Of a stretch of DNA of 64,000 bases, positions 20,839 to 50,351 are shown in pieces. Position numbers and translations under genes: made by a program. The notes below the pieces were generated by a model. It searched no databases. It saw only the letters and a program-made list of their open reading frames with translations, and was not told the DNA's origin. Every line of letters starts with the position of its first letter. Within the stretch, counting starts at the first letter, position 1. Location of the stretch: positions 1 through 64,000 of the forward strand of contig JANRLC010000048.1 in assembly GCA_033762955.1 (NCBI GenBank). The letters run 5' to 3'. The stretch comes from Verrucomicrobiota bacterium (GTDB lineage Bacteria > Verrucomicrobiota > Verrucomicrobiia > Opitutales > Oceanipulchritudinaceae).

Positions 20839-20872
20839 GTCGCGAGATAGGTCGAGTTTGCAGAGAGTTTGC

Positions 20873-21211: not shown

Positions 21212-21256
21212 GGTTCGATGGTGTTGAGGTTGGTGACGAAAGCACAAGTACTGTGT

Positions 21257-22419: not shown

Positions 22420-22650
22420 CGCGACTTTTCAAATAAATAAAGGATCGGGAGCGCTGAAGGCGCGACCCAAGGGAGTTGTAGGACCGCTCCTTAGGTCGCG
22501 CCTTCAGCGCTCATGGTGTTTTACTGGTCTAAACCTAGGCCGTCGGCCTAGGCTGGGGCTGGATCGCGCCTTCAGCGCTACCAAGGCAAATTGGGTTCAT
22601 CTCATTTCCCATGACTTCAGGATGTCTGATGTTAGTGTCGAAAAAAAACG
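22420..22650. mobile_element. MITE-like palindromic repeat, copy C
   Basis: GGATCGGGAGCGCTGAAGGCGCG ... GTCGCGCCTTCAGCGCTCATGG ... GTCTAAACCTAGGCCGTCGGCCTAGGCT ... GACTTCAGGATGTCTGA matches copies A and B. Confidence 0.65.
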
Positions 22651-23461
22651 GACAGAACCACATCGTGATCCTGTCCGCTTGATTACTGTCAGTCAGTGTC
22701 ACGGAACACCGAACACGAAGCAAAGCGAAGCGTCTGCTTTAACCGGCTAGGCGGCTTGGCTCATGGGTTCGGCTTCCGTCCGGATTACTTTGAGGTGCTT
22801 TACCTTGTCTTCTTCTGATCTGCTTATCGTCTGAAATCGCCTCTTTCGCTCGACACCTGAGCCTCTCTCATCTTCGGAGAACGTCTGAACTCAGCCGCGC
22901 GGAGGGTGCATCGCAGTTTTTGGACAATAAGCAATAGAAGCGGACTGGCGAAGGCACCAGCGCTTACATTCCCAACCGGTAACCAGCCACAGATGTCACT
23001 GATTCACACGGATAGAAGCAATCGCATCCGTGGCTAATCCATCTAATCTACACCCAATCTGTGGCCAAATGAGCGATCCGCCGCCGCATGGCCGTATCAT
23101 CCGCATTGGCGGCGAATACCGTGACTTGCGCCGTATTGAAGCGCATCCGGCTACGACCGCAAAGCCTCCCCGCTCATAGTGCGCGGTTAGCCCAATTCGG
23201 GTCCGCTGCGCTCAGATGACGCGGGCTGTCAGGCCCTGCTCATAACACAAAACGCAAAGGCGAATCGCCCGCGCCGCTCCGGGCTTGTTCAACCATGGAT
23301 GTAGTCGGAGATTCGTTCCTCATCTCCGCTACATCCTTTCGAAACACGATGCCTATTAAATATGCGCATTTAACCTACCACTTCCCTTTGTTTAAGCCAT
23401 CTCACAAATTGAGCATCGGCATATATATGACGTTGTGTTTAGTTCGGCTCCTTTGGTCTTC

Positions 23462-23800
23462 TCAACATTTAGATAGGGCGTCATTCTTTAATTTCTCCCC
23501 CAGTGATCTCAAGTCATCTATAATCCGATTCAACAATTGGATGTCGGTCGCATAAATCTGTTCATATAATTTGATTAGTTTATCTGAATCTTCCAAGGAA
23601 TCACCGAAGTGGAATGTCGCATTGCGAACTCGAACAAACTTATCGACGCGGGCTATAACCTTTCGGACTCGTTTTTTCTCTGCTCTTGTTTCGTCGGAAA
23701 GTGCGCCTAGCGCATCGAGTTTTCGATGCCACTCATTCAATCCGGCCCTTATTTCATAGAGGGCAGCTAAAACTTGCTTCTTAATGGCAATCTCCGTCAT
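23462..23800 (-). CDS. cassette ORF, HEPN-like (RNxxxH motif) hypothetical protein
   Basis: The 112-aa ORF has KFVRVRNATFHFGD, which fits the HEPN/DUF86 Rx4-6H motif. Its ATG overlaps the stop of an upstream 56-aa ORF (ATGA). Confidence 0.45.
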   Translation of the reverse strand: MTEIAIKKQVLAALYEIRAGLNEWHRKLDALGALSDETRAEKKRVRKVIARVDKFVRVRNATFHFGDSLEDSDKLIKLYEQIYATDIQLLNRIIDDLRSLGEKLKNDALSKC

Positions 23801-23967
23801 GCCGTGATGCTGATTTTTTTCTTTTCTTCTTTCAGGAAGGCGTCGTTGAACGCGCTAAGATAGGCATTCAACGCCGAATTTACATTCTGCCAGCCGACAA
23901 CCATGCGTCGGTATGTGCGCTGGGGTTCTGTTGCGCCGCGAATCCACTCGATTTGGGGATGCTTCAT
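23797..23967 (-). CDS. small cassette ORF (56 aa), possible partner/antitoxin of the HEPN-like gene
   Basis: MKHPQIEWIRGATEPQRTYRRMVVGWQNVNSALNAYLSAFNDAFLKEEKKKISITA. It starts 7 bp downstream of an attC R-prime box. It is absent from the ORF track because it is under 60 aa. Confidence 0.35.
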   Translation of the reverse strand: MKHPQIEWIRGATEPQRTYRRMVVGWQNVNSALNAYLSAFNDAFLKEEKKKISITA

Positions 23968-23973
23968 ATTTTT

Positions 23974-24080
23974 GCCGAACGATAAAGCTCAGACACCCCG
24001 CTGGGGATTTCCGAACTCAATAGTCTTCTCGTAAGCGCTGGGCGTCATCTGGGTTGTCTGTAGCGTCTTTCTTGTTAGTC
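23974..24080 (-). other. integron attC site
   Basis: Top strand GCCGAACGATAAAGCTCAGACACC ... GGTTGTCTGTAGCG ... GTTAGTC. Confidence 0.55.
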
Positions 24081-24325
24081 TGCGTCATTAGTCACCAAAA
24101 AGTTTGTCTCTTATCTCTTGAATCATCGAACGCACGTCATCACCAGTGCAGCTGCTGTTCGCTAACTGGCTCGAAATTCGGTCCAACTTCACAGGTATGC
24201 TGAGAATCGCGCACTCCAGTCGACGTACTCGCTCGGCTTTCTGCTCCACCAACTGACGAGCTCGAACAAGCTCTCGGCGTTTCTCTCGTTCTGCTTTGCT
24301 CGGAATGGTTACTGTGTTTGGTGTG

Positions 24326-24427
24326 GCCTAGCGTCAAAGATGAGCCACGATGCAACTTGGCGCGTTTCCTGACGCTGCAGGAATCGTGACAGGTCGTGTC
24401 GTTGGCTCTGGTGCCTTGTTGTTAGGC
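24326..24427 (-). other. integron attC site (long, lies inside the 3' end of the ORF 24334-24825)
   Basis: Top strand GCCTAGCGTCAAAGATGAGCCACG ... CGTTGGCTCTGGTGCCTTGTTGTTAGGC. Confidence 0.65.
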
Positions 24428-24825
24428 TGGATTTCTTCGAGCCTCTCCCAGCGCATTTCAAATTCGGGAATCATGTAGCTCTTCGGCTGAAGCCAGAATG
24501 AAACCCGCTCTTCCTTCACTCCGCGATGAGCTCTGGCTCTGACCTCCTCTGGCCTCAAAATGAAAATTCCAGGAGTGGCGTCTAAATTATTCACGATGAT
24601 CCAAAAGTCACCCATAACTTTATCGAGAGAATTTCCAAGCGGCACAGGACTCTTCTTGCTCAGTGCTTTCACTTGGATGCCGATGTAACGAGTGGCCGTT
24701 AGATCGTAGGCAATGATATCAATGCCCTTCGCATTTCGCGCGGTCGGCATGACATTCCAACCACGCTTTGACAACTCGTAGCACACGAAGTAAAGGCCTA
24801 CATTTCCTACGATCTGGGCGTTCAT
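24334..24825 (-). CDS. cassette ORF, Hjc/NucS-like PD-(D/E)xK nuclease-fold protein
   Basis: GNVGLYFVCYELSKRGWNVMPTARNAKGIDIIAYD ... IGIQVKAL fits the G..GE..V...L...G..V......DIIA ... QVK nuclease pattern. The C-terminal roughly 30 aa are translated through the attC. Confidence 0.5.
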   Translation of the reverse strand: MNAQIVGNVGLYFVCYELSKRGWNVMPTARNAKGIDIIAYDLTATRYIGIQVKALSKKSPVPLGNSLDKVMGDFWIIVNNLDATPGIFILRPEEVRARAHRGVKEERVSFWLQPKSYMIPEFEMRWERLEEIQPNNKAPEPTTRPVTIPAASGNAPSCIVAHL

Positions 24826-24831
24826 GATCTT

Positions 24832-24900
24832 GCCTAATGTGGAAGCTGAGGTGCGCTGCGAGCGTCAGCGAGTAGCGTCACCTTCAGCAACTTGTTAGCC
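24832..24900 (-). other. integron attC site
   Basis: Top strand GCCTAATGTGGAAGCTGAGGTGCGC ... CTTGTTAGCC. The stop codon TAA of the upstream cassette gene lies inside the R'' box GGCTAAC. Confidence 0.6.
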
Positions 24901-25389
24901 TAAATAATCAATCTTCAATGATCTCCTAAGCTTTTTCGCCGATTCGAGTGCGGTCCTCAAATTATCATCCATTGTATTCCCAACAAACTTTTCAATTAAT
25001 TCCAGTTGCTCATCTTTTGAATCAAGCACCAATCTAACAAGGGGATCCAACTCTCCTGCAACGGTATCAAATATTACTCCTTCCTTCCCCATCATTATTT
25101 TGTAATATAAATCTTCATTCTCTTGAAAGAGATTGATATCAAATCTCCCCTTGGCCCAATCAGAAACATGGCCTAGAAAACTATCTTGCTTAATATGATT
25201 TTCCAACTTCCCGGACAATCGGTTCACCTCTAAGGTATACTTGATGATGGGGTTTTTTATATTTACTATTTTTGACAGGAATAAAATCAATCCTTCCCAG
25301 TACTGATCATCCTCAGTGTTTATATATATGCAGATGTAAGATGGGCCATCCTTTGATATGATATTAGATTTGAGTATAGCTGTTTTCAT
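24895..25389 (-). CDS. cassette ORF, hypothetical protein (about 36% GC)
   Basis: 164-aa ORF bounded by attC sites on both sides. Confidence 0.5.
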   Translation of the reverse strand: MKTAILKSNIISKDGPSYICIYINTEDDQYWEGLILFLSKIVNIKNPIIKYTLEVNRLSGKLENHIKQDSFLGHVSDWAKGRFDINLFQENEDLYYKIMMGKEGVIFDTVAGELDPLVRLVLDSKDEQLELIEKFVGNTMDDNLRTALESAKKLRRSLKIDYLG

Positions 25390-25399
25390 AAATTGTCTG

Positions 25400-25464
25400 G
25401 CTAACGTAGAAGTGAGCGGCCTGCGCTGCTTTTCGCACAGGTCCGCTCTACTGCCGGGTTAGCC
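25400..25464 (-). other. integron attC site
   Basis: Top strand GGCTAACGTAGAAGTGAGCGGCC ... CTACTGCCGGGTTAGCC. The stop TAA is embedded in the R'' box. Confidence 0.6.
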
Positions 25465-26319
25465 ACGTTTTCGCTCAAGTATTTCATGGACGTCTTTGGC
25501 TAGCTGCCTATATGAGAGCGTTGCCATCTTCCTATCGCATAGTGCGACGACATGGCCCAGATCGTGCTCACCTTCAAACGGAAAGGAATCCGTGACGGCC
25601 GGGATATTTAGCGAGCCGATCCATTTACCTAGAATTCCAACGGAAATGACAATGTTAGATGGACCCAACCCCGCGATTACACACGAGCCCTTAATCAACT
25701 GACAAAAATGGCTCAACAATTCGCTCTCCTCTTTATCTGCACTTTCGGCTTGGGAAAATTCGTCATATCCTCGCAAACCGAAGTGTGCAAAGTCCTCGCG
25801 TTTTGATTCTGAGTTGAAGTTCATTAGTGCGCGCAGCTCGTTATGCTTGACATGAGTACGGAATAGATCGCCGTAGATGAAGTAACCAGCAGACAGCGCA
25901 ACCTTAGCAACGAAGCGTTTGCGGCCGTGAGCTTCAATATTAAATTGCGACGAAATCGTGTTTCCGCCGATTTCATGCGGCTCAAGGTGGCGCTTAGTCA
26001 TCGCATCCCAAATGAGCATGCCCTCTTTGCCACGCAAGGTAACTTGAATGGGCCGCTTTTCGTCGCCCAGATGCGACTTTTTCAATAACACCGTCGGCGG
26101 CGTGTTGCTGTGTCCCCTTGCGTCAAACTCACGACGGCGCATCAGCGTAAGAAAGTCGTTTGCCAACACTCCATCGATTCTTGAACCAACCTTCGCATTG
26201 AAGTCCTTCTCTACGGGAATACAGAACTGGTTTGATCCTCCGAGCGAAAGTGGAATGATGTGCTCGGAGTTCATTGCCTCTACAGGCAATTCAAGGTCTG
26301 TGTAAGGACACCACGGCAT
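25459..26319 (-). CDS. cassette ORF, HNH endonuclease-domain protein
   Basis: NSEHIIPLSLGGSN is an HNH motif near the N-terminus. The 286-aa protein has an uncharacterised C-terminal domain. Confidence 0.6.
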   Translation of the reverse strand: MPWCPYTDLELPVEAMNSEHIIPLSLGGSNQFCIPVEKDFNAKVGSRIDGVLANDFLTLMRRREFDARGHSNTPPTVLLKKSHLGDEKRPIQVTLRGKEGMLIWDAMTKRHLEPHEIGGNTISSQFNIEAHGRKRFVAKVALSAGYFIYGDLFRTHVKHNELRALMNFNSESKREDFAHFGLRGYDEFSQAESADKEESELLSHFCQLIKGSCVIAGLGPSNIVISVGILGKWIGSLNIPAVTDSFPFEGEHDLGHVVALCDRKMATLSYRQLAKDVHEILERKRG

Positions 26320-26321
26320 AG

Positions 26322-26395
26322 CGGCTAGCGTATGAGATCAGTCACGGCCCAGCAAGGCCGTTGGCTGTAGCGACTGGTTGGTCGGTTTGGTTTTC
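26322..26395 (-). other. integron attC site (boxes degenerate)
   Basis: Top strand TAGCGTATGAGATCAGTCACGGCCCAGCAAGGCCGTTGGCTGTAGCGACTGGTTGGTC is nearly identical to the attC at 49597-49657. Confidence 0.55.
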
Positions 26396-26406
26396 ATGGG
26401 GGATTC

Positions 26407-27123
26407 CTATGCGATGCGCTTCCACCGCTTGAACGCCGCTACATCATCGGAGGAAAGGTCAAACCACTCACCCTCACCTCGCTTGCTGGCAAAGCGTCTA
26501 TGCCAATAAGCCTCTACTCCTGCTGGATCATCGGTCTCGATGGTGTGAATGGTTGTCGGCGGGACAGGAATCTTTATCGCGAGCTGCCTCTCGCGACTTC
26601 CGACCGACACAGTCCGTCCAATCTTGTGGTGACGCCCGGATCGCATGAGATAAACAAAACCGGTTTCAACAGACCTCTCCTTGTCTGGAGCTGACGCCTC
26701 CTCCTTCAGCTCAGCCCGACATAGAGACAAAACGTCGTCGTACTCTGGATGACTCTCACAATACCGTACCACGCGACCAAGCAACGCGTCCTTCCCATCG
26801 CGGTAGAACACGGTCTGACTTGGAAACGTCTTATCCGTGCGAGACCGCAAAACAAACTCTCCTTTCACAGGAATACGCCCAAGCTCTCTCGCGAACGCGA
26901 TAAACTTCTCGACCAAAAAGTCTGCCGAATACGCGGCTTGCATTTGATTGCAGCTGAAGCCCGCTTCGACCAACGCATCGCCCCATCTAAGCCAATGACT
27001 GGGAAACCAATCATTGTGCCGAATGCCAGTCTTACGCTCGAACAAGAGTGTCCCGGGGGCTTTGCCGCCGTTCTCTTTCGCGATGCGACGGATTTCTTCG
27101 AGAACTCGTGCTTTTTCGATCAT
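26407..27123 (-). CDS. cassette ORF, T5orf172 (GIY-YIG-like) domain protein
   Basis: C-terminal half GFVYLMRSGRHHKIGRTVSVGSRERQL ... PAGVEAYWHRRFASKRGEGEWFDLS is the T5orf172/MUG113 signature. A GGAGG Shine-Dalgarno lies 7 nt upstream; the gene is translationally coupled to the 27142-27846 gene. Confidence 0.6.
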   Translation of the reverse strand: MIEKARVLEEIRRIAKENGGKAPGTLLFERKTGIRHNDWFPSHWLRWGDALVEAGFSCNQMQAAYSADFLVEKFIAFARELGRIPVKGEFVLRSRTDKTFPSQTVFYRDGKDALLGRVVRYCESHPEYDDVLSLCRAELKEEASAPDKERSVETGFVYLMRSGRHHKIGRTVSVGSRERQLAIKIPVPPTTIHTIETDDPAGVEAYWHRRFASKRGEGEWFDLSSDDVAAFKRWKRIA

Positions 27124-27141
27124 TGGTTAGCCTCCGTTTTC

Positions 27142-27846
27142 TTATTTGGGGTCACGCTTACCTGCTAAAATAGCGATTACATTAATGGCCGTAGTGGTGG
27201 CATCAACACATATTGCTGCACTTCTAAAATCCGCAGTTCGAGAGTGAGTAAGGGCATTCGCGATACGCAAGGATGCTTTGGTATAACGCCTGAGCTCCTC
27301 ATTCGCATCGCCCTTCATCTCAACGGCTATATACGATTCCAGCATTCTGTTTGCGTCCGTAGAACTGGGTTCGGTGCCATCAAGTGGAGGATGATTCGCT
27401 CTGATATATACGGCCTGCGCCAATGAAACTAATCCATCACGGCAAAGAAGTCCTACTGCCTGAAACTGCTCTTCATTCTCTGCCGACGCTAGACGATTCC
27501 TCATCTCGCCAACGGTTCTATCAACTCGCTCCCATCCGGTCAGCTGATATTCCTGCTCTTTTCCGGTCTGAATCAAATTTATTAATGGGGTAAATAGATT
27601 TGAGACAAAGCTTCTCCGGGATTGATAGCTTGGTAAATCACCCGAACTCCATCGGCCATACCAATCCCATAGACTGCCGTATGTAATAGGATTCGTGATT
27701 TTCCGAACCGCTAGAGCTGCTGAAATCTTAGCGTAAGTGCGCTGATACTGCTCATCGACTTCTTGGATTCGTGAGCCACCAGTAGAAACAGAGACCATGA
27801 GATCACGCATTTTATTAAGACCTTCAATCAACTCGGGATTATTCAT
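27142..27846 (-). CDS. first cassette ORF next to attI, hypothetical protein
   Basis: The 234-aa ORF starts about 6 bp from the attI junction. It shares a cassette (no attC between) with the T5orf172 gene. Confidence 0.55.
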   Translation of the reverse strand: MNNPELIEGLNKMRDLMVSVSTGGSRIQEVDEQYQRTYAKISAALAVRKITNPITYGSLWDWYGRWSSGDLPSYQSRRSFVSNLFTPLINLIQTGKEQEYQLTGWERVDRTVGEMRNRLASAENEEQFQAVGLLCRDGLVSLAQAVYIRANHPPLDGTEPSSTDANRMLESYIAVEMKGDANEELRRYTKASLRIANALTHSRTADFRSAAICVDATTTAINVIAILAGKRDPK

Positions 27847-27851
27847 ATTTT

Positions 27852-27990
27852 TGGCTATCAGTTTGATATATGGAAAGTTTTCCGTCCTATAGCAAGCCGT
27901 AGACGGAAACTTTATACATGTTATTGACTATAGAAACGGAATTCATGAAAAATGTGAAGCTTGCAGTCTGATTATCCGTCCTATTAGCTA
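27852..27990. promoter_or_regulatory. attI recombination site region, and probable Pc/Pint promoter region
   Basis: The intI 5' flank abuts the first cassette. It is about 85% identical to 50352-50495; similarity to that second copy stops exactly at the first-cassette boundary (27852 / 50352). Confidence 0.6.
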
Positions 27991-27995
27991 ATGAC

Positions 27996-28997
27996 ATGGA
28001 TAAAGTGGAAAAGAAGGCTGGGTTTCATCCTGATCCGGGGTTGCGGTTGATGGAGCAGGTGCGGGAGGGGTTGCGCTACTATCATTATGCTTACCGGACA
28101 GAGCAGATTTATTGCGAGTGGATTGACCGGTTTGTGAAGTTTTATCGGGATGAGCGGCATCCGCGAGAGATGGGGAGCCTGGAGGTGGAGCGGTTTCTCT
28201 CTCATCTGGCTTCGGTGGAGCAGGTTTCGGCTTCGACGCAGCGACAGGCTTTGAATGCCCTGGAGTTTTTGTATGACAGGGTACTTCTCCAGCCACTAGC
28301 CGGGGAAATTGCTCCCATCCGGGCCAGGCCGGGTCAGCGTCCGCCTGCGGTTTTGACCGTGGCGGAAACGGGCGCGTTGCTGGGGGCAATGAAGGGAACA
28401 CATGGGGTGATGGCGCGGTTGCTTTATGGGGCCGGGTTGCGCTTGATGGAGTGTGTCCGGCTGCGGATTAGGGATGTGGATTTTGGGCAGGGGCTGGTGT
28501 ATGTGCGCGATGGCAAGGGGGGAGGGGAGCGTACGGTGCCGCTGCCGAAGCGGTTGAAGCCGGCCTTGCTGGAGCACCTGCGACGGGTGCGGGCTTTGCA
28601 TGAGAGTGATCTGGCGGAGGGTTTCGGTGCGGTGTGGCTGCCGGAGGCTTTGTCGCGTAAATACCCGCAGGCTGAGCGTGAGCCGGGGTGGCAATATGTG
28701 TTCCCGGCCAAAAAGCGTTCCCTCGATCCGCGCAGTGGTCGGGAACAACGGCATCATGTCATGGAATCGGGGGTGCAAAAGGCGGTTAAGGTGGCGGTGG
28801 CCAGGGCGGGGATCACGAAAAAGGTGGGGTGCCACACTTTGCGTCATAGTTTCGCCACCCATCTGCTTGAAAGTGGGGTCAATATTCGTGTATTGCAGGA
28901 GTTGATGGGGCACAGGAATGTGAAAACTACCGAAATGTATACCCGTGTTGTGCTCGGTAATAAGCAGGGTATCACCAGCCCACTGGACAGGCTGTGA
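27996..28997 (+). CDS. intI: integron integrase (tyrosine recombinase IntI)
   Basis: Alignable by eye to IntI1: LRYYHYAYRTEQIYCEWIDRFVKFY; the IntI-specific insertion VWLPEALSRKYPQAEREPGWQYVFPAKKRSLDPRSGREQRHH; and catalytic HTLRHSFATHLL ... GH ... TEMYTRV (R-H-R-Y). Confidence 0.9.
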   Translation: MDKVEKKAGFHPDPGLRLMEQVREGLRYYHYAYRTEQIYCEWIDRFVKFYRDERHPREMGSLEVERFLSHLASVEQVSASTQRQALNALEFLYDRVLLQPLAGEIAPIRARPGQRPPAVLTVAETGALLGAMKGTHGVMARLLYGAGLRLMECVRLRIRDVDFGQGLVYVRDGKGGGERTVPLPKRLKPALLEHLRRVRALHESDLAEGFGAVWLPEALSRKYPQAEREPGWQYVFPAKKRSLDPRSGREQRHHVMESGVQKAVKVAVARAGITKKVGCHTLRHSFATHLLESGVNIRVLQELMGHRNVKTTEMYTRVVLGNKQGITSPLDRL

Positions 28998-28999
28998 GG

Positions 29000-42665: not shown

Positions 42666-43124
42666 CGGGTTTATGCCAAGACAAGGCTGATTGGACACGC
42701 TGAAAGGACAGACAAGAATGTCTATCCCACATTGCCCAATACCTCAATCCGTGGGATCGAGGCCATCCTGACTGCTCTGTGCGGGGTACACCAAGCGAAG
42801 CGACTTGCCTTTCCCTGCCTTTGCCCTTTCTGCCATCTTCCTGTTGCCTTCTGCCTTTGTCTTTTACCAACAAAAAGCGGACAGAACCACATGGTGATCC
42901 TGTCCGCTGGAATACTTATAGCTACTGCCTTGATTGACTAGGCGGTTTTACTCATGGGTTCGGCTTCGGTCCGGATTACATTGAGGTTATTACTACCGCG
43001 TTCGCGGTGGGTTTGGAGATATCCGAACTCAGTGGTCTTCTCGAATACGCTGGGCGTCATCGGGGTTGTCTGTAGCGCCAGGTTCGGCTTTCATTTTCTG
43101 TTTTCGACATCGCCTCGATTAACG

Positions 43125-44718: not shown

Positions 44719-44809
44719 TGCCGAACGTCTAGCTCATCCACGGCGGGGATGGAAGCCCGAATTCAAACTGGAGCGTTACCCGCCGTTGGATGGAGCGTCT
44801 TGTTCGCCT
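44719..44809 (-). other. integron attC site
   Basis: Top strand GCCGAACGTCTAGCTCATCCACGG ... CGTTGGATGGAGCGTCTTGTTCGCC. Confidence 0.6.
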
Positions 44810-44826
44810 TTGGTTTATGAGTTTGT

Positions 44827-45405
44827 CTATGCTGGATGAGTAAGTCGTGTGATGATCTCTTCAACGTCACGGACACCAGCAATAGCTAAGAAACCGTGGT
44901 CAGTGGATTGTCTGCCACCATCACCATCACCCGCCCAAGTCCGCTCAAAAATGAGGTCTCCAGTCCCATCTGGCTTCTGAACCCGTCGGATGTCTTTGAG
45001 TCGGTCGGGATCAAATGAACGAATTGTCATGGAACCAAATACACCACCAGCTAGGACAATAGCTCGCTGATCCGTGATGACATAGGCAGTTCTTCGAGCC
45101 ATTCGTCGCATCCAGTATGGACTGGAAAGCATACCAAATCCGATGAGGACGAATGGCAGGCCGAACAGTGGGAAAATGCCAAAGCCCTGACTAAAGTCGG
45201 GCATCTTGAACCCGCTGGCTCCAGCAATCCAGAAAAGAGCAAACGCTGTCCAAGGTATGCCAAACAGCACAAGTCCGATACTACGCCGGGCAAAACAACC
45301 AGGAATGGGCTGTCCAGTCCATGTGACACGTTCTCCATTTCGCAGTTCAGCATCAATAAGACGAGAAACATCGTGCGGTAAATTATTTGTGTGGTGGAAT
45401 TGCAT
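44827..45405 (-). CDS. cassette ORF, membrane protein (2 TM plus a bPH-like domain), hypothetical
   Basis: 192-aa ORF starting 16 bp after the R-prime box. Confidence 0.5.
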   Translation of the reverse strand: MQFHHTNNLPHDVSRLIDAELRNGERVTWTGQPIPGCFARRSIGLVLFGIPWTAFALFWIAGASGFKMPDFSQGFGIFPLFGLPFVLIGFGMLSSPYWMRRMARRTAYVITDQRAIVLAGGVFGSMTIRSFDPDRLKDIRRVQKPDGTGDLIFERTWAGDGDGGRQSTDHGFLAIAGVRDVEEIITRLTHPA

Positions 45406-45420
45406 AGGGTTTCATTTTTT

Positions 45421-45487
45421 GCCGAACGGTAAAGATGAGCCACGAGGCATGACAGCGGTGGACGTTGGCTCTGGTGCCTGGTTCGGC
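45421..45487 (-). other. integron attC site (best-preserved exemplar)
   Basis: Top strand GCCGAACGGTAAAGATGAGCCACGAGGCATGACAGCGGTGGACGTTGGCTCTGGTGCCTGGTTCGGC. R''/R' are GCCGAAC/GTTCGGC. L''/L' are GAGCCA(A)CG / CGTGGCTC with one extrahelical base. Confidence 0.75.
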
Positions 45488-45488
45488 C

Positions 45489-45851
45489 TCATGTGATAAC
45501 CGAAGATACCGCGACGCGACAATTCTCGGCCAAACCGTAAACCTTGTCGGCTTCGTAGTCGAATAGCTCGTAGTGCACCGATTCCCAGCCTCTCGAGCTA
45601 ATCTTATCTACGTCGAAACCGATGAGCTGGTGAATGGATGCAATGCGGAAATCGCGAACATTGCCGAAAGTGACATCGATCTGCCCCTTCTTTCCTTTGA
45701 GCACAAAGGAGACAATCTTTTCGAATCGCTCGCGATCTTCCTCGTAATATGTGTCGATAGACAGGCACTTAAGATCCGTAAAATCACCGAATGCGCAGTC
45801 GCCATACTGTGCTTTGACATCGGCGTAACCTGGAAGATCAGCGAGCGACAT
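45489..45851 (-). CDS. cassette ORF, hypothetical protein (120 aa)
   Basis: The stop codon directly abuts the R'' box. Confidence 0.5.
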   Translation of the reverse strand: MSLADLPGYADVKAQYGDCAFGDFTDLKCLSIDTYYEEDRERFEKIVSFVLKGKKGQIDVTFGNVRDFRIASIHQLIGFDVDKISSRGWESVHYELFDYEADKVYGLAENCRVAVSSVIT

Positions 45852-45859
45852 TGTATTTT

Positions 45860-45958
45860 CCGAACGTTATAGATCAGCCACGACTATGGCTGGCGCACAG
45901 CCTGCGCAAGCAGGATGCGTGACTGACATAGTCGTTGTGCTGTAGCGCCTGATTAGGC
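45860..45958 (-). other. integron attC site
   Basis: Top strand CCGAACGTTATAGATCAGCCACG ... GTCGTTGTGCTGTAGCGCCTGATTAGGC. Confidence 0.65.
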
Positions 45959-45964
45959 TCATGT

Positions 45965-46663
45965 TTATTGTATTTCTTTGCAGATAAAACTCCGTACGAC
46001 CGGTTGCGCTAGAATCATAGCTAATTCATCGTGCAAAACTTTTTCCTTGTTTCCGCCTGGAGGTGATGGATGGCTAAACTTAATAACTAAACGCTTGCGG
46101 TGAATGAATATTCGGTCTGCTGGACACGTGAACTCAGTGCTGGGATGGTATGCTGCGTGATAAGACCAAAAGGTGTTAGCGCACAAGATCACGTCGGGAC
46201 AAATAAGATCAATTTGCTCAGTGAGAAACTCTTTATCTCTGATTGCCGCTTGCTGTATCAGCTTCTGTGAGGAGGTAGTCTCTCCTAGCTCCTTGGAAAC
46301 ATTTACATAGGCGATATCTGACAACTGTATGGTTCCGGCATACCTTGAGTCAAATGCATCATACTCAGCTTGAGAACTTGATGCGTTACCGGTGTAAACC
46401 GATTTAATCAGATCCCTCCATCGAACAATATTGCGCCATATAATTGGGAATTTCCCGTTTCGCGCAATTATTTCTATTGGGCTCCCAGATATGTTATACC
46501 AATTCGCTTTTTTGTGTGATTCCTTCATCAGGAACAAAATCCTAGGCTTTGCGGTCATCCACGCTTCAGGGCTTAGGATGCCGTCCCGCACAAAGGGATT
46601 ATACCCCCGAGTGTGAGCCCACCTGTCTTGTAGTTCGGTTAACTTTTCGATTTCGATGTCCAT
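45965..46663 (-). CDS. cassette ORF, hypothetical protein (232 aa)
   Basis: Bounded by attC sites on both sides. Confidence 0.5.
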   Translation of the reverse strand: MDIEIEKLTELQDRWAHTRGYNPFVRDGILSPEAWMTAKPRILFLMKESHKKANWYNISGSPIEIIARNGKFPIIWRNIVRWRDLIKSVYTGNASSSQAEYDAFDSRYAGTIQLSDIAYVNVSKELGETTSSQKLIQQAAIRDKEFLTEQIDLICPDVILCANTFWSYHAAYHPSTEFTCPADRIFIHRKRLVIKFSHPSPPGGNKEKVLHDELAMILAQPVVRSFICKEIQ

Positions 46664-46669
46664 GTTATT

Positions 46670-46770
46670 TCTACCTTACGTCATAGATGAGCCACGAGCG
46701 TGCTCGACGCCAAAGCCTGCCCCGCAGCCGACGTGCCAAGCACGCTCGTTGGCTCTAGCGAATGATCAGG
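46670..46770 (-). other. integron attC site (R-prime box degenerate)
   Basis: Top strand CCTTACGTCATAGATGAGCCACGAGCGTGCTCG ... CAAGCACGCTCGTTGGCTCTAGCGAATGATCAGGC. Confidence 0.55.
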
Positions 46771-46771
46771 C

Positions 46772-47455
46772 TCATTTTTCATTCATCCAATTTAGTGTAT
46801 TGTTTATAGCCAGACACCATGCATCGTAAGCCGGACGCGACGGATGAGGTATGGAGTATATTAAGCATCCATCGACCACTGCGCTATTCCGGAATCCAAT
46901 CGGACCTTGGGGGCTCAATAACTGGTTCACCGCTGCTAAACCTGCATGACCTCCAACAAACACGACATCAGGTCTCAGTGCCATAATCTCAGCCCAGATG
47001 TATCTTCCGGTGTCAGAATGGCCGACTGCAGATATCGCTGCGTAATCCTGCGGTTTCACTGAATTGGACTGTGCTCGGATATTGTAATATATCGTTCTGT
47101 CTAAAGTGTCTTCAATCATATCATCGTTGGCAAACGCTGCGCTAAGCATCTCTCGCGACGCCGCTATCTTCTTCTGGAAACACGCTAGTGCTACATGGAG
47201 AACAGCAAAAGTGTATCGAGTCGTCTTAGTGCCCGTGTCGCCGGCATCATAAATCCAATCAATTAGGTCGTCTCGTGTAACATCGAACACGCCCATTTTC
47301 TCATAGCCATACGGTTCCATATTAACGGCGACAACTTTGAATGGCTCATTCCAGTAGCGGTCCGTTGTCGGTCCGTAGAACATGTGATGTGTCGCTCCGG
47401 AATCAAGAAGGTGCTTCCGTAAGCTAGCGCGGGCTTCGTGGAATTTATGGATCAT
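46772..47455 (-). CDS. cassette ORF, hypothetical protein (about 227 aa)
   Basis: Start moved to the internal MIHKFHEAR so that the R-prime box GTTCGGC lies 19 bp upstream, as in the other cassettes. Confidence 0.45.
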   Translation of the reverse strand: MIHKFHEARASLRKHLLDSGATHHMFYGPTTDRYWNEPFKVVAVNMEPYGYEKMGVFDVTRDDLIDWIYDAGDTGTKTTRYTFAVLHVALACFQKKIAASREMLSAAFANDDMIEDTLDRTIYYNIRAQSNSVKPQDYAAISAVGHSDTGRYIWAEIMALRPDVVFVGGHAGLAAVNQLLSPQGPIGFRNSAVVDGCLIYSIPHPSRPAYDAWCLAINNTLNWMNEK

Positions 47456-47474
47456 GAATTGATTGATTAATTCT

Positions 47475-47639
47475 GCCGAACGCATAGGTCAACGACGGGA
47501 GCCAGCCTCCGATGACGTTCGATGTGTCTCTGAGCGAATCGGCTGGCTCACGTTCACTGGACCGTCTGGTTCGCCTTCTTCTTCATTTTCGGTCCCATGA
47601 CGCGAAACAGGCTTTGTCTTCAATCCAGCCTTGTTCGGA
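47475..47639 (-). other. integron attC site, unusually long or compound
   Basis: Top strand GCCGAACGCATAGGTCAACGACGGGAGCCAGCC ... GGCTGGCTCACG ... GGTTCGCC ... TTGTTCGGA. Confidence 0.45.
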
Positions 47640-47642
47640 TTT

Positions 47643-47897
47643 TCAGAAGAAGACAATCGGTCCACCGCTAGCGGTGCATGACTCTGCCAGATAAACGGAG
47701 ATCACATCAGGTTCATCCTGTGAAATGCCCACAACCACAAGATTGTAAGCCTTGGCCGCAGACTGGACAATCAGCGCGACTTCTCCTTGGGACGCTGCCA
47801 TTTCACCAGCGGCATTCTTACAGTTAAAATCGCCTTGCTCAGACACGCAGCCTGCCACAAATACAAGCGCGAAGGAAATGATGCGATGAAGGGCCAT
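47643..47897 (-). CDS. cassette ORF, small lipoprotein (84 aa)
   Basis: MALHRIISFALVFVAGC gives the lipobox. It starts 6 bp after the R-prime box. Confidence 0.45.
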   Translation of the reverse strand: MALHRIISFALVFVAGCVSEQGDFNCKNAAGEMAASQGEVALIVQSAAKAYNLVVVGISQDEPDVISVYLAESCTASGGPIVFF

Positions 47898-47902
47898 TCT
47901 AT

Positions 47903-47990
47903 CGGCGAACGTAAAAGTGCGCTACGGATGAAACTAAGCCTAAGACGTTTGCTCCCCCGACTTGCTCTACAATGCGGGGCAACTTAGAAT
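47903..47990 (-). other. integron attC site (degenerate)
   Basis: Top strand CGGCGAACGTAAAAGTGCGCTACGG ... the far box is weak (AACTTAGAA). Confidence 0.4.
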
Positions 47991-48625
47991 CTAGATATCA
48001 AACCTAAAAAATAGGAAATAATAGCAGTAATAATAACTAGGATAATGTTATCCTTATTACGATACCAGAAACTTTTATACTTATGTTTTCTGTTTAAGAA
48101 GATTTTTGATGAACCAATAAATGAGTGTCCAAGAAATAAGATATAAAATATGACCAGTGATAGCAGTAAACCAGCTGGATACTTAATGAAATTATTCAGG
48201 GGAAGAAATGGGGTAAGATATACTATCAGAAAAATAGACATACCACATATCATTCCGAGAATACCATTCCACCAATAGCCAGTAGGATGCCATGAGTACC
48301 ATTTAACATGTGAGCTTAATAAATCCTTTACGAAGGGCGCATCTTTTTCGTTTTGATAGGGACGGCTAATTGTAACACCTCTTGGCTCAATATCTATGCG
48401 AATTTCATCAAAGGAGTTCTTGTACCTGAAAATAAGATTAAGGGAAGAAATGTGATCCCTTGATACGTGCTCCAATAATTCTTCTAATGACTCGTACTCC
48501 GTATTGTCATACATCACACTCAATTCTGAGTCATCAGGAAGTTGTCGGATTAGATTATCTAAATCATCAAGGTATAATCTAATTGGAGGTATCCTAATAG
48601 GGGCAGTGCTTCTGATTATTTTCAT
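47984..48625 (-). CDS. cassette ORF, membrane protein (about 214 aa), hypothetical, about 33% GC
   Basis: Start moved to MKIIRSTAPIRIPP, 6 bp downstream of the R-prime box. The longer ORF-track start lies inside the attC. Confidence 0.45.
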   Translation of the reverse strand: MKIIRSTAPIRIPPIRLYLDDLDNLIRQLPDDSELSVMYDNTEYESLEELLEHVSRDHISSLNLIFRYKNSFDEIRIDIEPRGVTISRPYQNEKDAPFVKDLLSSHVKWYSWHPTGYWWNGILGMICGMSIFLIVYLTPFLPLNNFIKYPAGLLLSLVIFYILFLGHSFIGSSKIFLNRKHKYKSFWYRNKDNIILVIITAIISYFLGLISRF

Positions 48626-48630
48626 TTTAT

Positions 48631-48750
48631 TAGAACGTACAAGATTCAAGATGAGCCAAGTGTATGCTTGGCGCGAATCGTGTCCTACAAAAGGGAAGAA
48701 AAGCACGATTCGTGACAATCATACGCATTGGTTCCATCGCCATGTTAGCC
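48631..48750 (-). other. integron attC site (long)
   Basis: Top strand TAGAACGTACAAGATTCAAGATGAGCCAAG ... CATGTTAGCC directly followed by the stop TAA of the upstream gene. Confidence 0.5.
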
Positions 48751-49587
48751 TTAGTTTCGTTTTATTTTATGCACTCCATCAGGTGCTTGAATCTGATTAT
48801 CTGTCTGAACTTCGATCAGTTGTAAATCTGTAACTACGCTTTGGTTGTATCCAAATTTTAGTTCAACATATTTATGATTTCCGTCGGAATGTTCATCTAG
48901 GCCCCATGCTCTCTTAATGACCAATCTGGTTTCTCTTTCATATGAATATTTGTGTGGCAGGTATAGCCCGCAAATGGAGGATGCGTCCTCCCAAAAAAAC
49001 TCTTTATTTAAACTATTTTTGGTCCAGTCCTGGACTTCTTTAAAGAAATCAGCCCATTTATCTATACCGTTTCCGTAGGTAATGCGCCGAAGGCATCCCG
49101 ACTGAACTGTCAATCTGAATCTAAACCTAAACCCATTACCTTTAGCGAATACAGTCCAAAAATTATGTTCTTCATTTGGTGTGAGATCAGTGTCTGTCAT
49201 CGATGTGTAGTAAAATCCATCGGCTATAGATTGAACATATCGAGGCCTCTGGGAGGCCTCATCTATTCCGAGAGGATACTTGTAGTCAAATTTCTCAAGA
49301 AAAGCCCGTATCTCATCCTCTTGGATTCTTTTTTCAACTGAATATAGCCTTAATCGACTGGTGGTTAAAATACTTTCACCGCTCACCTTATTCGTGTAAT
49401 GGTAGAACTCGCTGTCGTGTATCGGAGGGCAAATTTGATTGGTTAATTGCTTGGATATGCGCCCACCTTTGATCGAGTCGATTACCACGCGCTCAAGAAA
49501 GTTGAAGTCGTCTTTGGTAGCTTGAATTCCGAATTCGTGTTTGGTGAAAATATCATTCAACCCCTGGATGTATTTATCGTATTCCAT
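48751..49587 (-). CDS. cassette ORF, hypothetical protein (278 aa, low GC)
   Basis: Bounded by attC sites on both sides. Confidence 0.5.
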   Translation of the reverse strand: MEYDKYIQGLNDIFTKHEFGIQATKDDFNFLERVVIDSIKGGRISKQLTNQICPPIHDSEFYHYTNKVSGESILTTSRLRLYSVEKRIQEDEIRAFLEKFDYKYPLGIDEASQRPRYVQSIADGFYYTSMTDTDLTPNEEHNFWTVFAKGNGFRFRFRLTVQSGCLRRITYGNGIDKWADFFKEVQDWTKNSLNKEFFWEDASSICGLYLPHKYSYERETRLVIKRAWGLDEHSDGNHKYVELKFGYNQSVVTDLQLIEVQTDNQIQAPDGVHKIKRN

Positions 49588-49596
49588 TGTATTTCT

Positions 49597-49657
49597 GGCA
49601 AACGTTAAAGATCAGCCACGGCCCAGTAGGGCCGTTGGCTGTAGCGCCTGGTTAGCC
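49597..49657 (-). other. integron attC site
   Basis: Top strand GGCAAACGTTAAAGATCAGCCACGGCCCAGTAGGGCCGTTGGCTGTAGCGCCTGGTTAGCC. Confidence 0.7.
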
Positions 49658-49750
49658 TCATTTTCATTGGCTGTCAAAATGTGCGAAGACCTCGATAAGC
49701 GAGGAAGCAAAGGGCACCCAGCAGCGCCAACATGACAATTACCGCGAGCT

Positions 49751-49990
49751 TCACAGGCGCGCTTTCACTCTCTGATCATCGCGAGCGCGGGGAAAACTCT
49801 TCACAACTTCGAAGGCAATCCATTCGTGCGGCTCGCCCTCAACATGCGCGCCGTCGATAGGAATCAAGCCTTCGCTTTTCGACATCGCACCGGACTTAAT
49901 TTGCTCCGCAAGCGCGATGATGTCTTTCTGCTCCCCCGCGACTGTGACGCCGGGAGATGGTCCGCCTTCTACTTTCACGAGGAGCTTCAT
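49751..49990 (-). CDS. cassette ORF, small hypothetical protein (about 79 aa)
   Basis: Overlaps the upstream ORF by 29 nt in the ORF track; the start is moved to MKLLVKVEGG. Confidence 0.4.
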   Translation of the reverse strand: MKLLVKVEGGPSPGVTVAGEQKDIIALAEQIKSGAMSKSEGLIPIDGAHVEGEPHEWIAFEVVKSFPRARDDQRVKARL

Positions 49991-50012
49991 TCTTTGGCTC
50001 TCTAGTGCCTGG

Positions 50013-50345: not shown

Positions 50346-50351
50346 AGTAAA

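What the first reader, a model, noticed from the sequence alone, without database searches (positions are those of the whole stretch)
22740..28997. Complete sedentary chromosomal integron: intI, attI and a low-GC cassette array
Taken together the evidence supports a complete chromosomal integron. The protein at 27996-28997 aligns by eye with IntI1, including the integron-integrase-specific insertion ALPEALSRKYPQAEREPGWQYVFP...DPRSG..RHH and the RHRY catalytic residues. Immediately upstream and divergent lie at least seven small minus-strand ORFs with GC well below that of the neighbouring housekeeping genes. Each is followed by a 65-110-bp imperfect palindrome with inverse core boxes (GCCKAAC / GTTMGGC). 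Stop codons are embedded in the 5' box, and the next ORF starts 6-35 bp after the 3' box. This is the architecture of an integron with homogeneous species-specific attC sites.
Basis: partly seen in the sequence, partly recalled or inferred. Interest (0 to 1): 0.9.

Follow-up and report, generated by a model that had tools for sequence, protein, structure and literature searches.

The report
Chromosomal integron with an integrase-less twin
This is a genuine but ordinary integron (a gene-capture platform made of an integrase, an insertion site and a row of mobile gene cassettes) in the chromosome of an uncultured Verrucomicrobiota bacterium, and 22 kb away sits a duplicated copy that kept its insertion site and cassettes but lost the integrase gene.

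Summary
ORF 27996-28997(+) is an intact integron integrase: TIGR02249 scores 416 bits against a cutoff of 265, and it aligns end to end with VchIntIA, including the IntI-specific insertion. NCBI already names it 'integron integrase' in a Verrucomicrobiota MAG.

Divergent from it lie an attI region and a low-GC (48%) minus-strand array. The array has five statistically robust attC sites: 26323-26383, 25399-25464, 24832-24900, 24326-24427 and 23974-24080. A covariance model built only from sites outside the finding detected all five. It found nothing else in the 64 kb, and it also finds arrays beside intI genes of unrelated bacteria.

Several details need correction:
- Only 5 of 8 ORFs are followed by an attC.
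- The distal 1.2 kb (22740-23973) has only relics.
- The attC sites are about 61% identical, so they are not homogeneous.
- 'Sedentary' is untested.

There is also a paralogous locus at 39.6-51.5 kb. It shares the flanks, an 81%-identical attI and seven attC sites. A roughly 1085-bp deletion there removed intI, leaving a CALIN that kept its attI. One cassette recurs, cassette-bounded, in another metagenomic array.

Verdict: a new member of a known kind, of modest interest.

The parts
27996..28997 (+). intI, an intact integron integrase of 333 aa.
   Evidence: TIGR02249 scores 416.4 bits against a cutoff of 265. Pfam finds Phage_int_SAM_4 and Phage_integrase. The protein aligns full length to VchIntIA 2a3v at E 1e-85, including the insertion at residues ~196-254. 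It is 100% identical to an NCBI protein named 'MAG: integron integrase [Verrucomicrobiota bacterium]'.
27859..27995 (-). attI region. It carries two direct ATAGGACGGA repeats (27975-27984 and 27881-27890), a GGAAAACTTTCCA palindrome, and the inferred crossover between G27859 and A27858.
   Evidence: The region is 81% identical to 50352-50496. The decamer occurs exactly four times in the 64 kb, two per attI. The junction aligns to the G|TT of attI regions next to IntI relatives of 63-66% identity. Function is inferred, not shown.
27924..27953 (+). Candidate intI promoter: TTGACT-18-AAAAAT, 43 nt upstream of the ATG.
   Evidence: Consensus scan scores 9/12. This is weak evidence. No cassette promoter (Pc) reached the threshold.
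26329..27858 (-). Cassette 1 (1530 bp). It holds two ORFs, 27846-27142 (234 aa, no family) and 27123-26407 (238 aa, MUG113/T5orf172 GIY-YIG-like), plus attC 26323-26383.
   Evidence: ORFs and families. The attC scores 39 bits with the B-only model and 60 bits with R2.
25405..26328 (-). Cassette 2. ORF 26319-25459 (286 aa, with a weak HNH_5 match below the Pfam cutoff) plus attC 25399-25464 (GGCTAAC…GTTAGCC).
   Evidence: The attC scores 31 and 49.6 bits. The bottom-strand fold has z -3.4 with bulged T on the 3' arm.
24838..25404 (-). Cassette 3. ORF 25389-24895 (164 aa, no family) plus attC 24832-24900 (R' is ATTAGGC).
   Evidence: The attC scores 25.5 and 55.8 bits.
24332..24837 (-). Cassette 4. 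ORF 24825-24334 (163 aa, reads into its own attC) plus attC 24326-24427.
   Evidence: The attC scores 62 bits with the B-only model. Window 24840-24326 is 79% identical over 515 bp to L022 5987-6497. That match is exactly one cassette inside an 8-attC metagenomic array.
23980..24331 (-). Cassette 5. A small ORF 24252-24088 (54 aa, doubtful) plus attC 23974-24080 (107 nt).
   Evidence: The attC scores 30 and 49.8 bits. Its left half is homologous to 43014-43077 in locus B.
22700..23979 (-). Distal, decayed part of the array. It holds overlapping ORFs 23967-23797 (56 aa) and 23800-23462 (112 aa), an orphan R'' box GCCGAAC at 23441-23447, about 660 bp without ORFs, and an attC relic at 22708-22773.
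   Evidence: No significant CM hit. The orphan R'' is 7/7 complementary to the R' of the preceding attC. There are no ORFs longer than 43 aa. Region 22734-22796 is homologous to 42925-42987.
22646..22680 (-). Intrinsic terminator that closes the array.
   Evidence: A 16-bp stem followed by a T-run. It is conserved in locus B at 42872-42916, 91% identical.
50360..50496 (-). Locus B: attI-like region without an integrase. It keeps both ATAGGACGGA repeats (50471-50480 and 50381-50390).
   Evidence: Window 28002-29086 (intI) is absent here, and the junction has GAT microhomology. tblastn finds no intI fragment anywhere else in the window.
44720..50359 (-). Locus B cassette array (a CALIN). Its seven attC sites are at 49597-49657, 48630-48750, 47475-47575, 46673-46771, 45859-45958, 45421-45487 and 44720-44808. 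GC is 0.477 measured over the slightly larger interval 43125-50345.
   Evidence: attC hits. ORFs. No ORF has a Pfam family. GC.
42872..43088 (-). Locus B array end: a truncated attC (43014-43088) and the conserved terminator region.
   Evidence: Homology. The truncated attC scores only 10.7 bits. Sequence shown.

Best explanation
Region 22646-28997 is a complete chromosomal integron of a Verrucomicrobiota bacterium.

Components and mechanism:
- intI (27996-28997, + strand) encodes a tyrosine recombinase of the integron-integrase subfamily.
- The 137-bp region upstream of it is attI. New cassettes would be inserted there, with the crossover at about 27859|27858.
- Running away from attI on the minus strand are five promoterless cassettes of 352-1530 bp. 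Each ends in an attC site.
- The bottom strand of each attC (the window's + strand) folds into a hairpin with paired R and L boxes, an unpaired central spacer, extrahelical bases on the 3' arm and a variable loop.
- By analogy with studied integrons, IntI would excise a cassette by attC x attC recombination of the folded bottom strands. It would then re-insert the circle at attI, next to a promoter in or near attI. These steps are inferred, not shown.
- The distal 1.3 kb is a decayed tail that ends at a terminator.

A paralogous copy of the whole platform lies at 39.6-51.5 kb. It kept attI and seven attC sites but lost intI through a ~1.1-kb deletion. It is therefore a CALIN of demonstrable origin, and the single IntI could service it in trans (inferred).
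For: Integrase:
- TIGR02249 scores 416 bits (cutoff 265), against 131-134 bits for XerC/XerD models.
- It aligns ungapped to VchIntIA residues 4-320, including the IntI-specific insertion. The catalytic motifs are conserved.

attC sites:
- Model R1 was built from six locus-B sites only. It finds five locus-A sites (E 4e-5 to 3e-16), all on the minus strand, and nothing else in the window.
- The same model finds same-strand arrays upstream of and divergent from intI in unrelated genomes: L002 has 11 sites, and L014 and L017 have 8 each.
- On the 12 sites, 87% of cells pair and 10 of 18 pairs show compensatory changes. The covariation score is 0.35, against 0.14 in shuffles (0/500 reach it) and at most 0.076 when partners are slid.
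- Bottom-strand folds show a bulged T on the 3' arm, and the unpaired columns are 6 bp apart, as in canonical attC.

Cassette mobility:
- Window 24840-24326 matches L022 5987-6497 at 79% over exactly one cassette, with different neighbours, inside an 8-attC array.
- Homologues of that protein occur in many phyla, and one in Marinobacter is also followed by an attC.

attI:
- The region is conserved between the two loci, with the decamer present only there.
- The junction aligns to G|TT in relatives.

Chromosomal context:
- The flanks encode GH42, an LpxA-like protein, PdxA, IF-3, an amidase and DnaE. No transposase is present.

Low GC: 0.48 against 0.58-0.60.

Twin locus.
Against: - No recombination was observed. 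Activity is inferred from sequence alone.
- Three of the five R' boxes in array A deviate from the conserved GTT (GCT, ATT, GCT).
- Both attI junctions are off consensus by one base (GAT in A, CTT in B). Parts of the array may therefore be frozen.
- No cassette promoter reached the scan threshold.
- No LexA-type box was found.
- With five attC sites the array is small for a 'sedentary' integron.
- attC sites are only ~61% identical.
- The sequence is a MAG contig, so assembly cannot be independently verified. However, the two loci have different outer flanks, which argues against strain collapse.
Confidence: 0.9

Rival explanations
1. This is a fossil integron. intI is intact by sequence, but the array is no longer recombined. 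The cassettes are fixed chromosomal genes, and the attC sites are decaying relics.
For: - Three of five R' triplets in array A are not GTT, and the attI junction reads GAT.
- The distal 1.3 kb has only orphan boxes.
- One attC in locus B is truncated, and two (47904-47970 and 43022-43088) score at noise level.
- No Pc or SOS box was found.
Against: - intI is full length with all catalytic motifs.
- The L-box helices are 92% paired with compensatory changes.
- The two paralogous arrays share their flanks at 81-94% identity but share no cassette ORFs. At least one array has therefore turned over completely since the duplication.
- GAT/ATC variants co-vary in the related L022 array, so GAT may be tolerated in this lineage.
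Confidence: 0.3
2. This is a mobile integron carried on a transposon, plasmid or other mobile element, not a resident chromosomal one.
For: The array is short (5 attC sites). That is within the range of mobile integrons as given in PMC9024848 (read).
Against: - No transposase, IS, relaxase or plasmid gene lies within 10 kb on either side. The flanks are core genes.
- The IntI scores below the cutoff of the NF011946 integron-integrase equivalog model (311 bits against 435; I take this to be the class 1 model, not verified). Its closest relatives are 63-67% identical proteins from Kiritimatiellales/Verrucomicrobia genomes that are also in chromosomal contexts.
- The cassettes carry no resistance genes.
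Confidence: 0.05
3. This is not an integron. It would be a XerC/D-type or phage-type recombinase that happens to lie next to REP- or MITE-like palindromic intergenic repeats.
For: The window does contain other palindromic repeat families: 22433-22628 resembles 10993-11176, and 7443-7648 resembles 11129-11333. A strict RYYYAAC…GTTRRRY scan found nothing in the region.
Against: - The recombinase is above the integron-integrase cutoff and far below the Xer cutoffs.
- The insertion is present.
- The palindromes are strand-specific and lie only at ORF ends.
- They have attC architecture, and the model built from them recognises arrays next to intI in other phyla.
Confidence: 0.02

Closest known systems
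Chromosomal integrons as defined by Cury et al. 2016 and IntegronFinder ('complete integron'), for example the Vibrio cholerae superintegron with VchIntIA (PDB 2a3v)
   Same: - It has a divergent intI, an attI and an array of co-oriented, promoterless, mostly ORFan cassettes with low GC.
- The attC sites have R''/L''/L'/R' boxes, an unpaired central spacer, extrahelical bases 6 bp apart and variable loops.
- The IntI carries the family-specific insertion.
- The context is chromosomal.
   Different: - It has only 5 attC sites (12 counting the twin), against tens to hundreds in V. cholerae.
- Its attC sites are ~61% identical, not the >80% VCR-like homogeneity.
- IntI aligns end to end with VchIntIA (E 1e-85), but its percent identity was not computed. 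It belongs to a PVC-superphylum clade.
- Several crossover triplets deviate from GTT.
CALIN elements (clusters of attC sites lacking an integron integrase)
   Same: Locus B (44720-50496) has seven attC sites and no intI within 20 kb. It sits in a genome that encodes IntI elsewhere on the same replicon.
   Different: - Most CALINs have no traceable origin. Only 15 of 279 had an intI pseudogene nearby (PMC4889954, read).
- Here the origin can be read directly. A paralogous platform shows a ~1085-bp deletion that removed intI from its second or third codon onward.
- The attI region survived, with both repeat motifs intact.
Integrons of Kiritimatiellales and Verrucomicrobia genomes (Pontiella sulfatireligans, Verrucomicrobia bacterium S94)
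   Same: - These are the closest named IntI relatives, at 64-66% identity.
- They share the same divergent layout, with small ORFan genes upstream.
- Their attI ends share the GGAAAAnTTTCCA-type motif and the AAC(N)G|TT junction.
- S94 has three attC sites recognised by model R2.
   Different: No cassette is shared. The Pontiella attC sites are not recognised by R2 at E<0.01. No twin locus was seen within the fetched flanks.

Membership tests
Integron integrase (IntI) | A tyrosine-recombinase fold with the catalytic R-K-HxxR-H-Y residues. | tested here: met
   PF00589 and PF13495 are found. The motifs GLRLMEC, GKGG, HTLRHSF, GHRNV and MYTRV align to the catalytic motifs of VchIntIA.
Integron integrase (IntI) | The IntI-specific additional domain (insertion between patches II and III) that is absent from XerC/D. 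| tested here: met
   Query residues 196-254 align without a gap to VchIntIA 2a3v, whereas XerC-like and XerA structures align in two pieces that skip this stretch. TIGR02249 scores 416 bits, above its cutoff of 265. The XerC and XerD models score 131-134 bits, far below their cutoffs of ~330. The IntegronFinder intI_Cterm profile itself was not available.
Complete integron (Cury et al. 2016 / IntegronFinder) | At least one attC site within 4 kb of intI, on one strand. | tested here: met
   The nearest attC (26323-26383) is 1.6 kb from intI. Five sites lie on the minus strand, 352-1530 bp apart. The model was my own, not IntegronFinder's. It was cross-validated on intI-linked arrays of other bacteria.
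Complete integron (Cury et al. 2016 / IntegronFinder) | attC architecture: an R''/R' inverse core with AAC/GTT, L''/L' boxes, an unpaired spacer, extrahelical bases on the bottom strand, and a variable terminal loop. | tested here: met
   Alignment and structure are (R helix 79% paired, L helix 92% paired, 10 compensatory pairs). Bulged T on the 3' arm of bottom-strand folds. Loop lengths give sites of 61-121 nt. Exception: 3 of 5 R' boxes in array A are GCT or ATT rather than GTT.
Complete integron (Cury et al. 2016 / IntegronFinder) | An attI site adjacent to intI where cassettes are inserted. | tested here: inconclusive
   The 137-bp region is conserved in the twin locus, carries locus-specific repeats, and has a junction that aligns to G|TT in relatives. 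attI sites have no general sequence model, so function needs an assay.
Complete integron (Cury et al. 2016 / IntegronFinder) | A Pc promoter that drives the proximal cassettes. | tested here: inconclusive
   No minus-strand sigma-70-like site scoring at least 9/12 lies in 27850-28300. The only candidate is a weak TTGCTA-17-CATATA at 27895-27867, which is conserved in locus B. Verrucomicrobial promoters may differ.
Complete integron (Cury et al. 2016 / IntegronFinder) | Cassettes are discrete mobile units. | tested here: met
   Cassette 4 recurs at 79% identity, bounded within 3-6 nt of the predicted G|TT borders, in a different array with different neighbours. This is indirect evidence. Excision itself is not testable with these tools.
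Sedentary chromosomal integron | A chromosomal location outside any mobile element. | tested here: met
   Core genes lie on both sides and between the two loci. No transposase or plasmid gene is present.
Sedentary chromosomal integron | A large array, meaning more than 10 attC sites (formerly more than 19). | tested here: not met
   Locus A has five robust attC sites, and locus B has seven. The threshold comes from PMC9024848 (read).
Sedentary chromosomal integron | The same locus is present in all strains or close relatives of the species, and the attC sites are highly homogeneous. | not testable with these tools
   No close relative exists in the collections searched. The next best IntI is 67% identical, and the best genome-contig hit is 55%. 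attC homogeneity was tested and is moderate, with mean identity 61% on shared columns.
CALIN (locus B) | [quoted passage not shown] | tested here: met
   Seven sites lie in 44720-49657. tblastn finds no intI fragment in the window other than 27996-28994.
Mobile integron classes 1-5 | IntI orthologous to IntI1-IntI5, carried on a transposon or plasmid. | tested here: not met
   The NF011946 integron-integrase equivalog model scores 311 bits, below its cutoff of 435. I take this to be the class 1 model, which I did not verify. No mobility genes are nearby.

The most novel reading that the evidence does not exclude
One integrase may serve two platforms. The intI-less twin keeps a usable attI. Both ATAGGACGGA repeats and the 16-nt block next to the crossover are perfectly conserved against an 81% background. 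Six of its seven attC sites keep canonical GTT triplets. The single IntI at 27996-28997 would then capture and shuffle cassettes at two separately transcribed arrays 22 kb apart. That would make a natural 'two-attI' integron. It would also be a rare case in which the birth of a CALIN by a clean intI deletion can be read directly from a paralogue.
Probability: 0.3. Interest if true: 0.5.

Novelty: new member of a known kind. Interest (0 to 1): 0.3.

Why it matters
This finding adds a well-resolved example of an integron from Verrucomicrobiota, a phylum where integrons are known but little described. It also supplies a set of PVC-type attC and attI sequences.

The more useful piece is the twin locus. 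The origin of CALIN elements is debated, and most have no trace of an integrase. Here a paralogous pair documents the 'loss of intI' route with a defined deletion junction and a surviving attI. The two arrays share no cassette ORFs although their flanks are 81-94% identical. This gives a relative clock for cassette turnover against point divergence.

None of this changes the understanding of how integrons work.

Tried and rejected
- A strict RYYYAAC(N40-150)GTTRRRY scan found nothing in the region. The boxes deviate from the textbook consensus by one base each.
- The generic inverted-repeat finder did not recover the attC sites, because bulges interrupt the arms.
- Rfam has no matching family. 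It reported only three tRNAs.
- My relaxed box-plus-folding scan gave many false pairs in GC-rich genes. It was nevertheless what revealed the sites at 44-50 kb.
- The candidate at 40266-40364 was rejected as an attC. It is an intrinsic terminator.
- The candidate at 11073-11200 was rejected. It is a MITE-like repeat.
- Degenerate candidates scored at noise level (5-11 bits) with both models and are reported only as relics: the candidate attC starting at the orphan box 23441-23447, 22708-22773, 23130-23234, 47904-47970 and 43022-43088.
- PADLOC gave no convincing defence-system hit. The only match was a weak PDC-S57 hit on the T5orf172 protein at E 2e-4.
- Pfam and NCBIfam found nothing for most cassette ORFs.
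- An exact-sequence look-up of IntI found no contig.
- The genome-contig scan found only relatives of 55% identity or less, so strain comparison was impossible.
- LexA-box patterns (CTGT-N8-ACAG, TGTTC-N4-GAACA, GAAC-N4-GTTC) gave no match with fewer than 2 mismatches.
- GC skew across the window is inconsistent, so the orientation of attC bottom strands relative to replication could not be inferred.
- The rule that each R'' should match the upstream R' better than its own R' is supported at only 2 of the 10 robust junctions (A3 and B2 in the numbering). Two more cases, the orphan R'' at 23441-23447 and B3, are supported only via degenerate sites. The rest are ties or go the other way.

Full report
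**The observation**

Between 27846 and 23462 the minus strand carries eight ORFs (234, 238, 286, 164, 163, 54, 56 and 112 aa). This stretch is 48.3% GC. By comparison, intI is 58.4%, the core-gene block to its right is 58.3% and dnaE is 60.0%.

**The integrase**

- Pfam finds the SAM-like N-terminal domain and the catalytic domain of tyrosine recombinases.
- NCBIfam TIGR02249 'integron integrase' scores 416.4 bits (cutoff 265). XerC, XerD and XerA models score 131-160 bits, far below their cutoffs.
- Against solved structures, the protein aligns end to end (residues 17-333) with Vibrio cholerae IntIA/IntI4 (2a3v, E 1e-85). The alignment has no break across residues ~196-254.
- That stretch is the IntI-specific insertion. 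XerC-like and XerA structures align only as two pieces on either side of it.
- The catalytic motifs are all present: GLRLMEC, GKGG, HTLRHSF, GHRNV and MYTRV.
- The identical protein is already in NCBI as 'MAG: integron integrase [Verrucomicrobiota bacterium]' on a 66.8-kb contig.
- The next closest proteins are 63-67% identical. They include Pontiella sulfatireligans, Kiritimatiellales MAGs and Verrucomicrobia bacterium S94.

**The attC sites**

A strict textbook pattern found nothing, and the generic repeat finder missed the sites. Reading the intergenic gaps and running a relaxed box scan showed palindromes with GGCTAAC/GTTAGCC-type boxes.

The same kind of site also turned up far outside the finding, at 44-50 kb. 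I used that for a semi-independent test. A covariance model (R1) was built from six sites of the distant array only.

- With filters off over the whole window, R1 scored five sites inside the finding: 24326-24427 (62 bits), 26323-26383 (39), 25399-25464 (31), 23974-24080 (30) and 24832-24900 (25.5).
- It also scored one untrained site at 47475-47575 (26 bits).
- All hits are on the minus strand, and nothing else reaches E<0.01.
- The same model finds co-oriented arrays upstream of and divergent from intI in unrelated bacteria: 11 sites in a Lysobacterales MAG, 8 in a betaproteobacterial MAG and 8 in Frateuria. It therefore recognises generic attC sites, not a local repeat.

On the 12 aligned sites, 87% of cells are paired and 10 of 18 pairs show compensatory changes. 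The covariation score is 0.35, against 0.14 in shuffles (0/500 reach it) and at most 0.076 for slid partners.

The structure is the canonical one:
- a 7-bp R''/R' helix;
- a 5-6-nt unpaired spacer;
- an L helix with two unpaired top-strand positions 6 bp apart, one an invariant A that becomes a bulged T on the folded bottom strand;
- a variable loop, giving total lengths of 61-121 nt.

A refined model (R2) trained on all 12 sites found no further site.

- Five ORF groups end in an attC, not every ORF.
- The first cassette holds two ORFs separated by 18 bp. That gap contains an orphan GGCTAAC overlapping the ribosome-binding region.
- ORF 24825-24334 reads about 30 codons into its own attC. Its homologues elsewhere are 131-150 aa.
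- The ORF pair 23967-23797 / 23800-23462 is followed only by an orphan GCCGAAC box.
- Region 22740-23440 has no ORF longer than 43 aa and no significant attC.
- The array ends at a strong intrinsic terminator, 22646-22680.
- Mean attC identity on shared columns is 61%. The arms are conserved, but the sites are not homogeneous in the Vibrio sense.
- Three of the five R' boxes read GCT, ATT and GCT instead of GTT.

**Evidence that the units are real cassettes**

The protein of cassette 4 has about 2000 homologues across many phyla. The closest homologue (82% identity) lies on metagenomic contigs L022 and L023, inside an array of eight attC sites recognised by R2.

DNA similarity between the window and L022 is 79% over 515 bp. 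It runs from 24840 to 24326, which is from the R' box of the preceding attC to the last base of the cassette's own attC. The similarity stops there, and the neighbouring cassettes are unrelated. A Marinobacter homologue is also followed directly by an attC.

**attI**

- The 137 bp between the intI start and the first cassette contain two direct copies of ATAGGACGGA and a GGAAAACTTTCCA palindrome.
- The decamer occurs exactly four times in the 64 kb: twice here and twice in the homologous region of the second locus.
- I aligned this region with the intI-proximal regions of four IntI relatives of 63-66% identity. The block next to the first cassette lines up with their '…TTCCA…AAC(N)G|TT…' junctions.
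- This places the crossover at G27859|A27858 in locus A (reads GAT) and at C50360|T50359 in locus B (reads CTT).
- This is comparative support, not proof of function.
- A promoter-like site faces intI at 27924-27953. No convincing Pc was found.

**The second locus**

Self-comparison shows that the whole platform is duplicated in the same orientation.

| Feature | Locus A | Locus B | Identity |
|---|---|---|---|
| Left flank with pentapeptide-repeat gene | 20705-21283 | 39680-40257 | 87% |
| Array-end terminator | 22643-22687 | 42872-42916 | 91% |
| attC | 24002-24065 | 43014-43077 | 87.5% |
| attC | 26335-26379 | 49609-49653 | 91% |
| attI | 27851-28001 | 50352-50496 | 81% |
| Right flank | 29263-29473 | 50793-51004 | 94% |

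The right flank also includes 21-nt tandem repeats in both loci.

- In locus B the attI homologue is joined directly to the sequence that in locus A lies 90 nt past the intI stop. About 1085 bp (28002-29086) are missing, and the junction has a GAT microhomology.
- tblastn finds no other intI fragment in the window.
- Locus B carries seven attC sites and about ten ORFan genes at 47.7% GC.
- The two loci share no cassette ORFs.
- Their outer flanks differ: inositol monophosphatase and GH42 for A, a 595-aa protein and dnaE for B. They are separated by lpxA-like, pdxA, infC and amidase genes. A strain-collapse artefact is therefore unlikely.
- Locus B fits the definition of a CALIN. It documents the 'loss of intI' route that Cury et al. 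proposed but could trace in only 5% of cases (PMC4889954, read).

**Comparison with what is known**

Integrons are already reported from Verrucomicrobia/Verrucomicrobiota (PMC4889954; PMC8618304, read). The layout, the integrase features and the attC architecture here are canonical.

The context is chromosomal and free of mobility genes. However, the array is below the >10-attC size used to call integrons sedentary (PMC9024848, read), and conservation across strains cannot be tested. I therefore file it as a complete chromosomal integron, a new member of a known kind, with 'sedentary' unproven.

Cassette functions are mostly unknown:
- one T5orf172/MUG113 GIY-YIG-like protein;
- one protein with a weak HNH-like match;
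- one protein I read by eye as PD-(D/E)xK-like;
- a possible HEPN-like small gene pair.

There is no resistance gene and no PADLOC system.

**Mechanism**

Shown here:
- the components and their arrangement;
- the attC structure with covariation;
- the cassette-bounded homology to another array;
- the deletion that made locus B.

Inferred from the family:
- IntI-catalysed attC x attC excision of folded bottom strands;
- attI x attC insertion;
- expression from a promoter near attI;
- possible trans action of IntI on locus B.

Noticed in passing
window 39622-51500: This is a paralogous copy of the whole integron platform in the same orientation. It has shared flanks, an attI-like region (50352-50496) and seven attC sites (44720-49657) at low GC. 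intI was removed by a ~1085-bp deletion. No cassette ORFs are shared with locus A.
   Followed up: yes
window 24840-24326 vs L022 5987-6497 (JGI 3300000156) and L023 (SRR11869874): One cassette (a 163-aa protein I read by eye as PD-(D/E)xK-like, plus its attC) recurs at 79% DNA identity. The match has cassette-exact borders and lies inside an unrelated 8-attC metagenomic array. In that array several attC sites carry co-varying GATC-type boxes (GCCGATC…GATCGGY) instead of AAC/GTT.
   Followed up: partly
window 27124-27141: A perfect GGCTAAC box, the array's typical R'' box, sits in the 18-bp gap between the two ORFs of the first cassette with no attC behind it. It may be a remnant of a deleted attC (two cassettes fused), or chance overlap with the GGAGG ribosome-binding site.
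   Followed up: no
window 20873-21247 and 39847-40224 (minus strand): Duplicated 124-125-aa pentapeptide-repeat protein genes (87% DNA identity) lie just beyond the end of each array, in the same orientation as the cassettes. The four-helix-bundle/zinc-ribbon gene 20053-20838 next to copy A is absent beside copy B.
   Followed up: partly
window 21284-22642 and 40258-42871: These are locus-specific low-GC segments between the conserved terminator and the conserved pentapeptide gene. Locus A has a DUF3592 membrane protein (21257-21925). Locus B has a 347-aa ORFan (40345-41388). No attC was detected, so they could be very old cassettes or independent insertions.
   Followed up: no
window 22433-22628, 10993-11176, 7443-7648, 11129-11333: MITE- or REP-like repeats of about 200 bp, built around the palindrome GAGCGCTGAAGGCGCG, occur in inverted orientations at several places. 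One copy sits directly after the array terminator.
   Followed up: no
window 29540-29915 and 51141-51393; also 29002-29129, 50494-50720, 50975-51120, 51396-51502, 158-228: G-rich 21-nt tandem repeats (11-14 copies), and short CAGATTT / AATGGAGAATGGAA-type repeats, flank the 3' side of intI and the equivalent side of locus B. They create long spurious ORFs and a strong local GC skew.
   Followed up: no
window 42174-42667: An 81-99-bp tandem repeat of about 5 copies (86-94% matches) lies just beyond the end of array B.
   Followed up: no
window 23462-23967 (minus strand): The overlapping small ORF pair (56 aa and 112 aa, with an ATGA overlap) resembles a toxin-antitoxin layout. The larger protein has an RNATFH (Rx4H, HEPN-like) motif that I read by eye. 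There are no Pfam or PADLOC hits.
   Followed up: no
L029 (Verrucomicrobia bacterium S94), L030 (Pontiella sulfatireligans), L031, L032: The IntI relatives of 63-66% identity have the same divergent layout with small ORFan genes. Their attI-proximal regions share TGGAAAATTTTCCA-like and CATATGTGGAAA-like repeats with this locus. Model R2 recognises three attC sites in S94 but none in Pontiella.
   Followed up: partly
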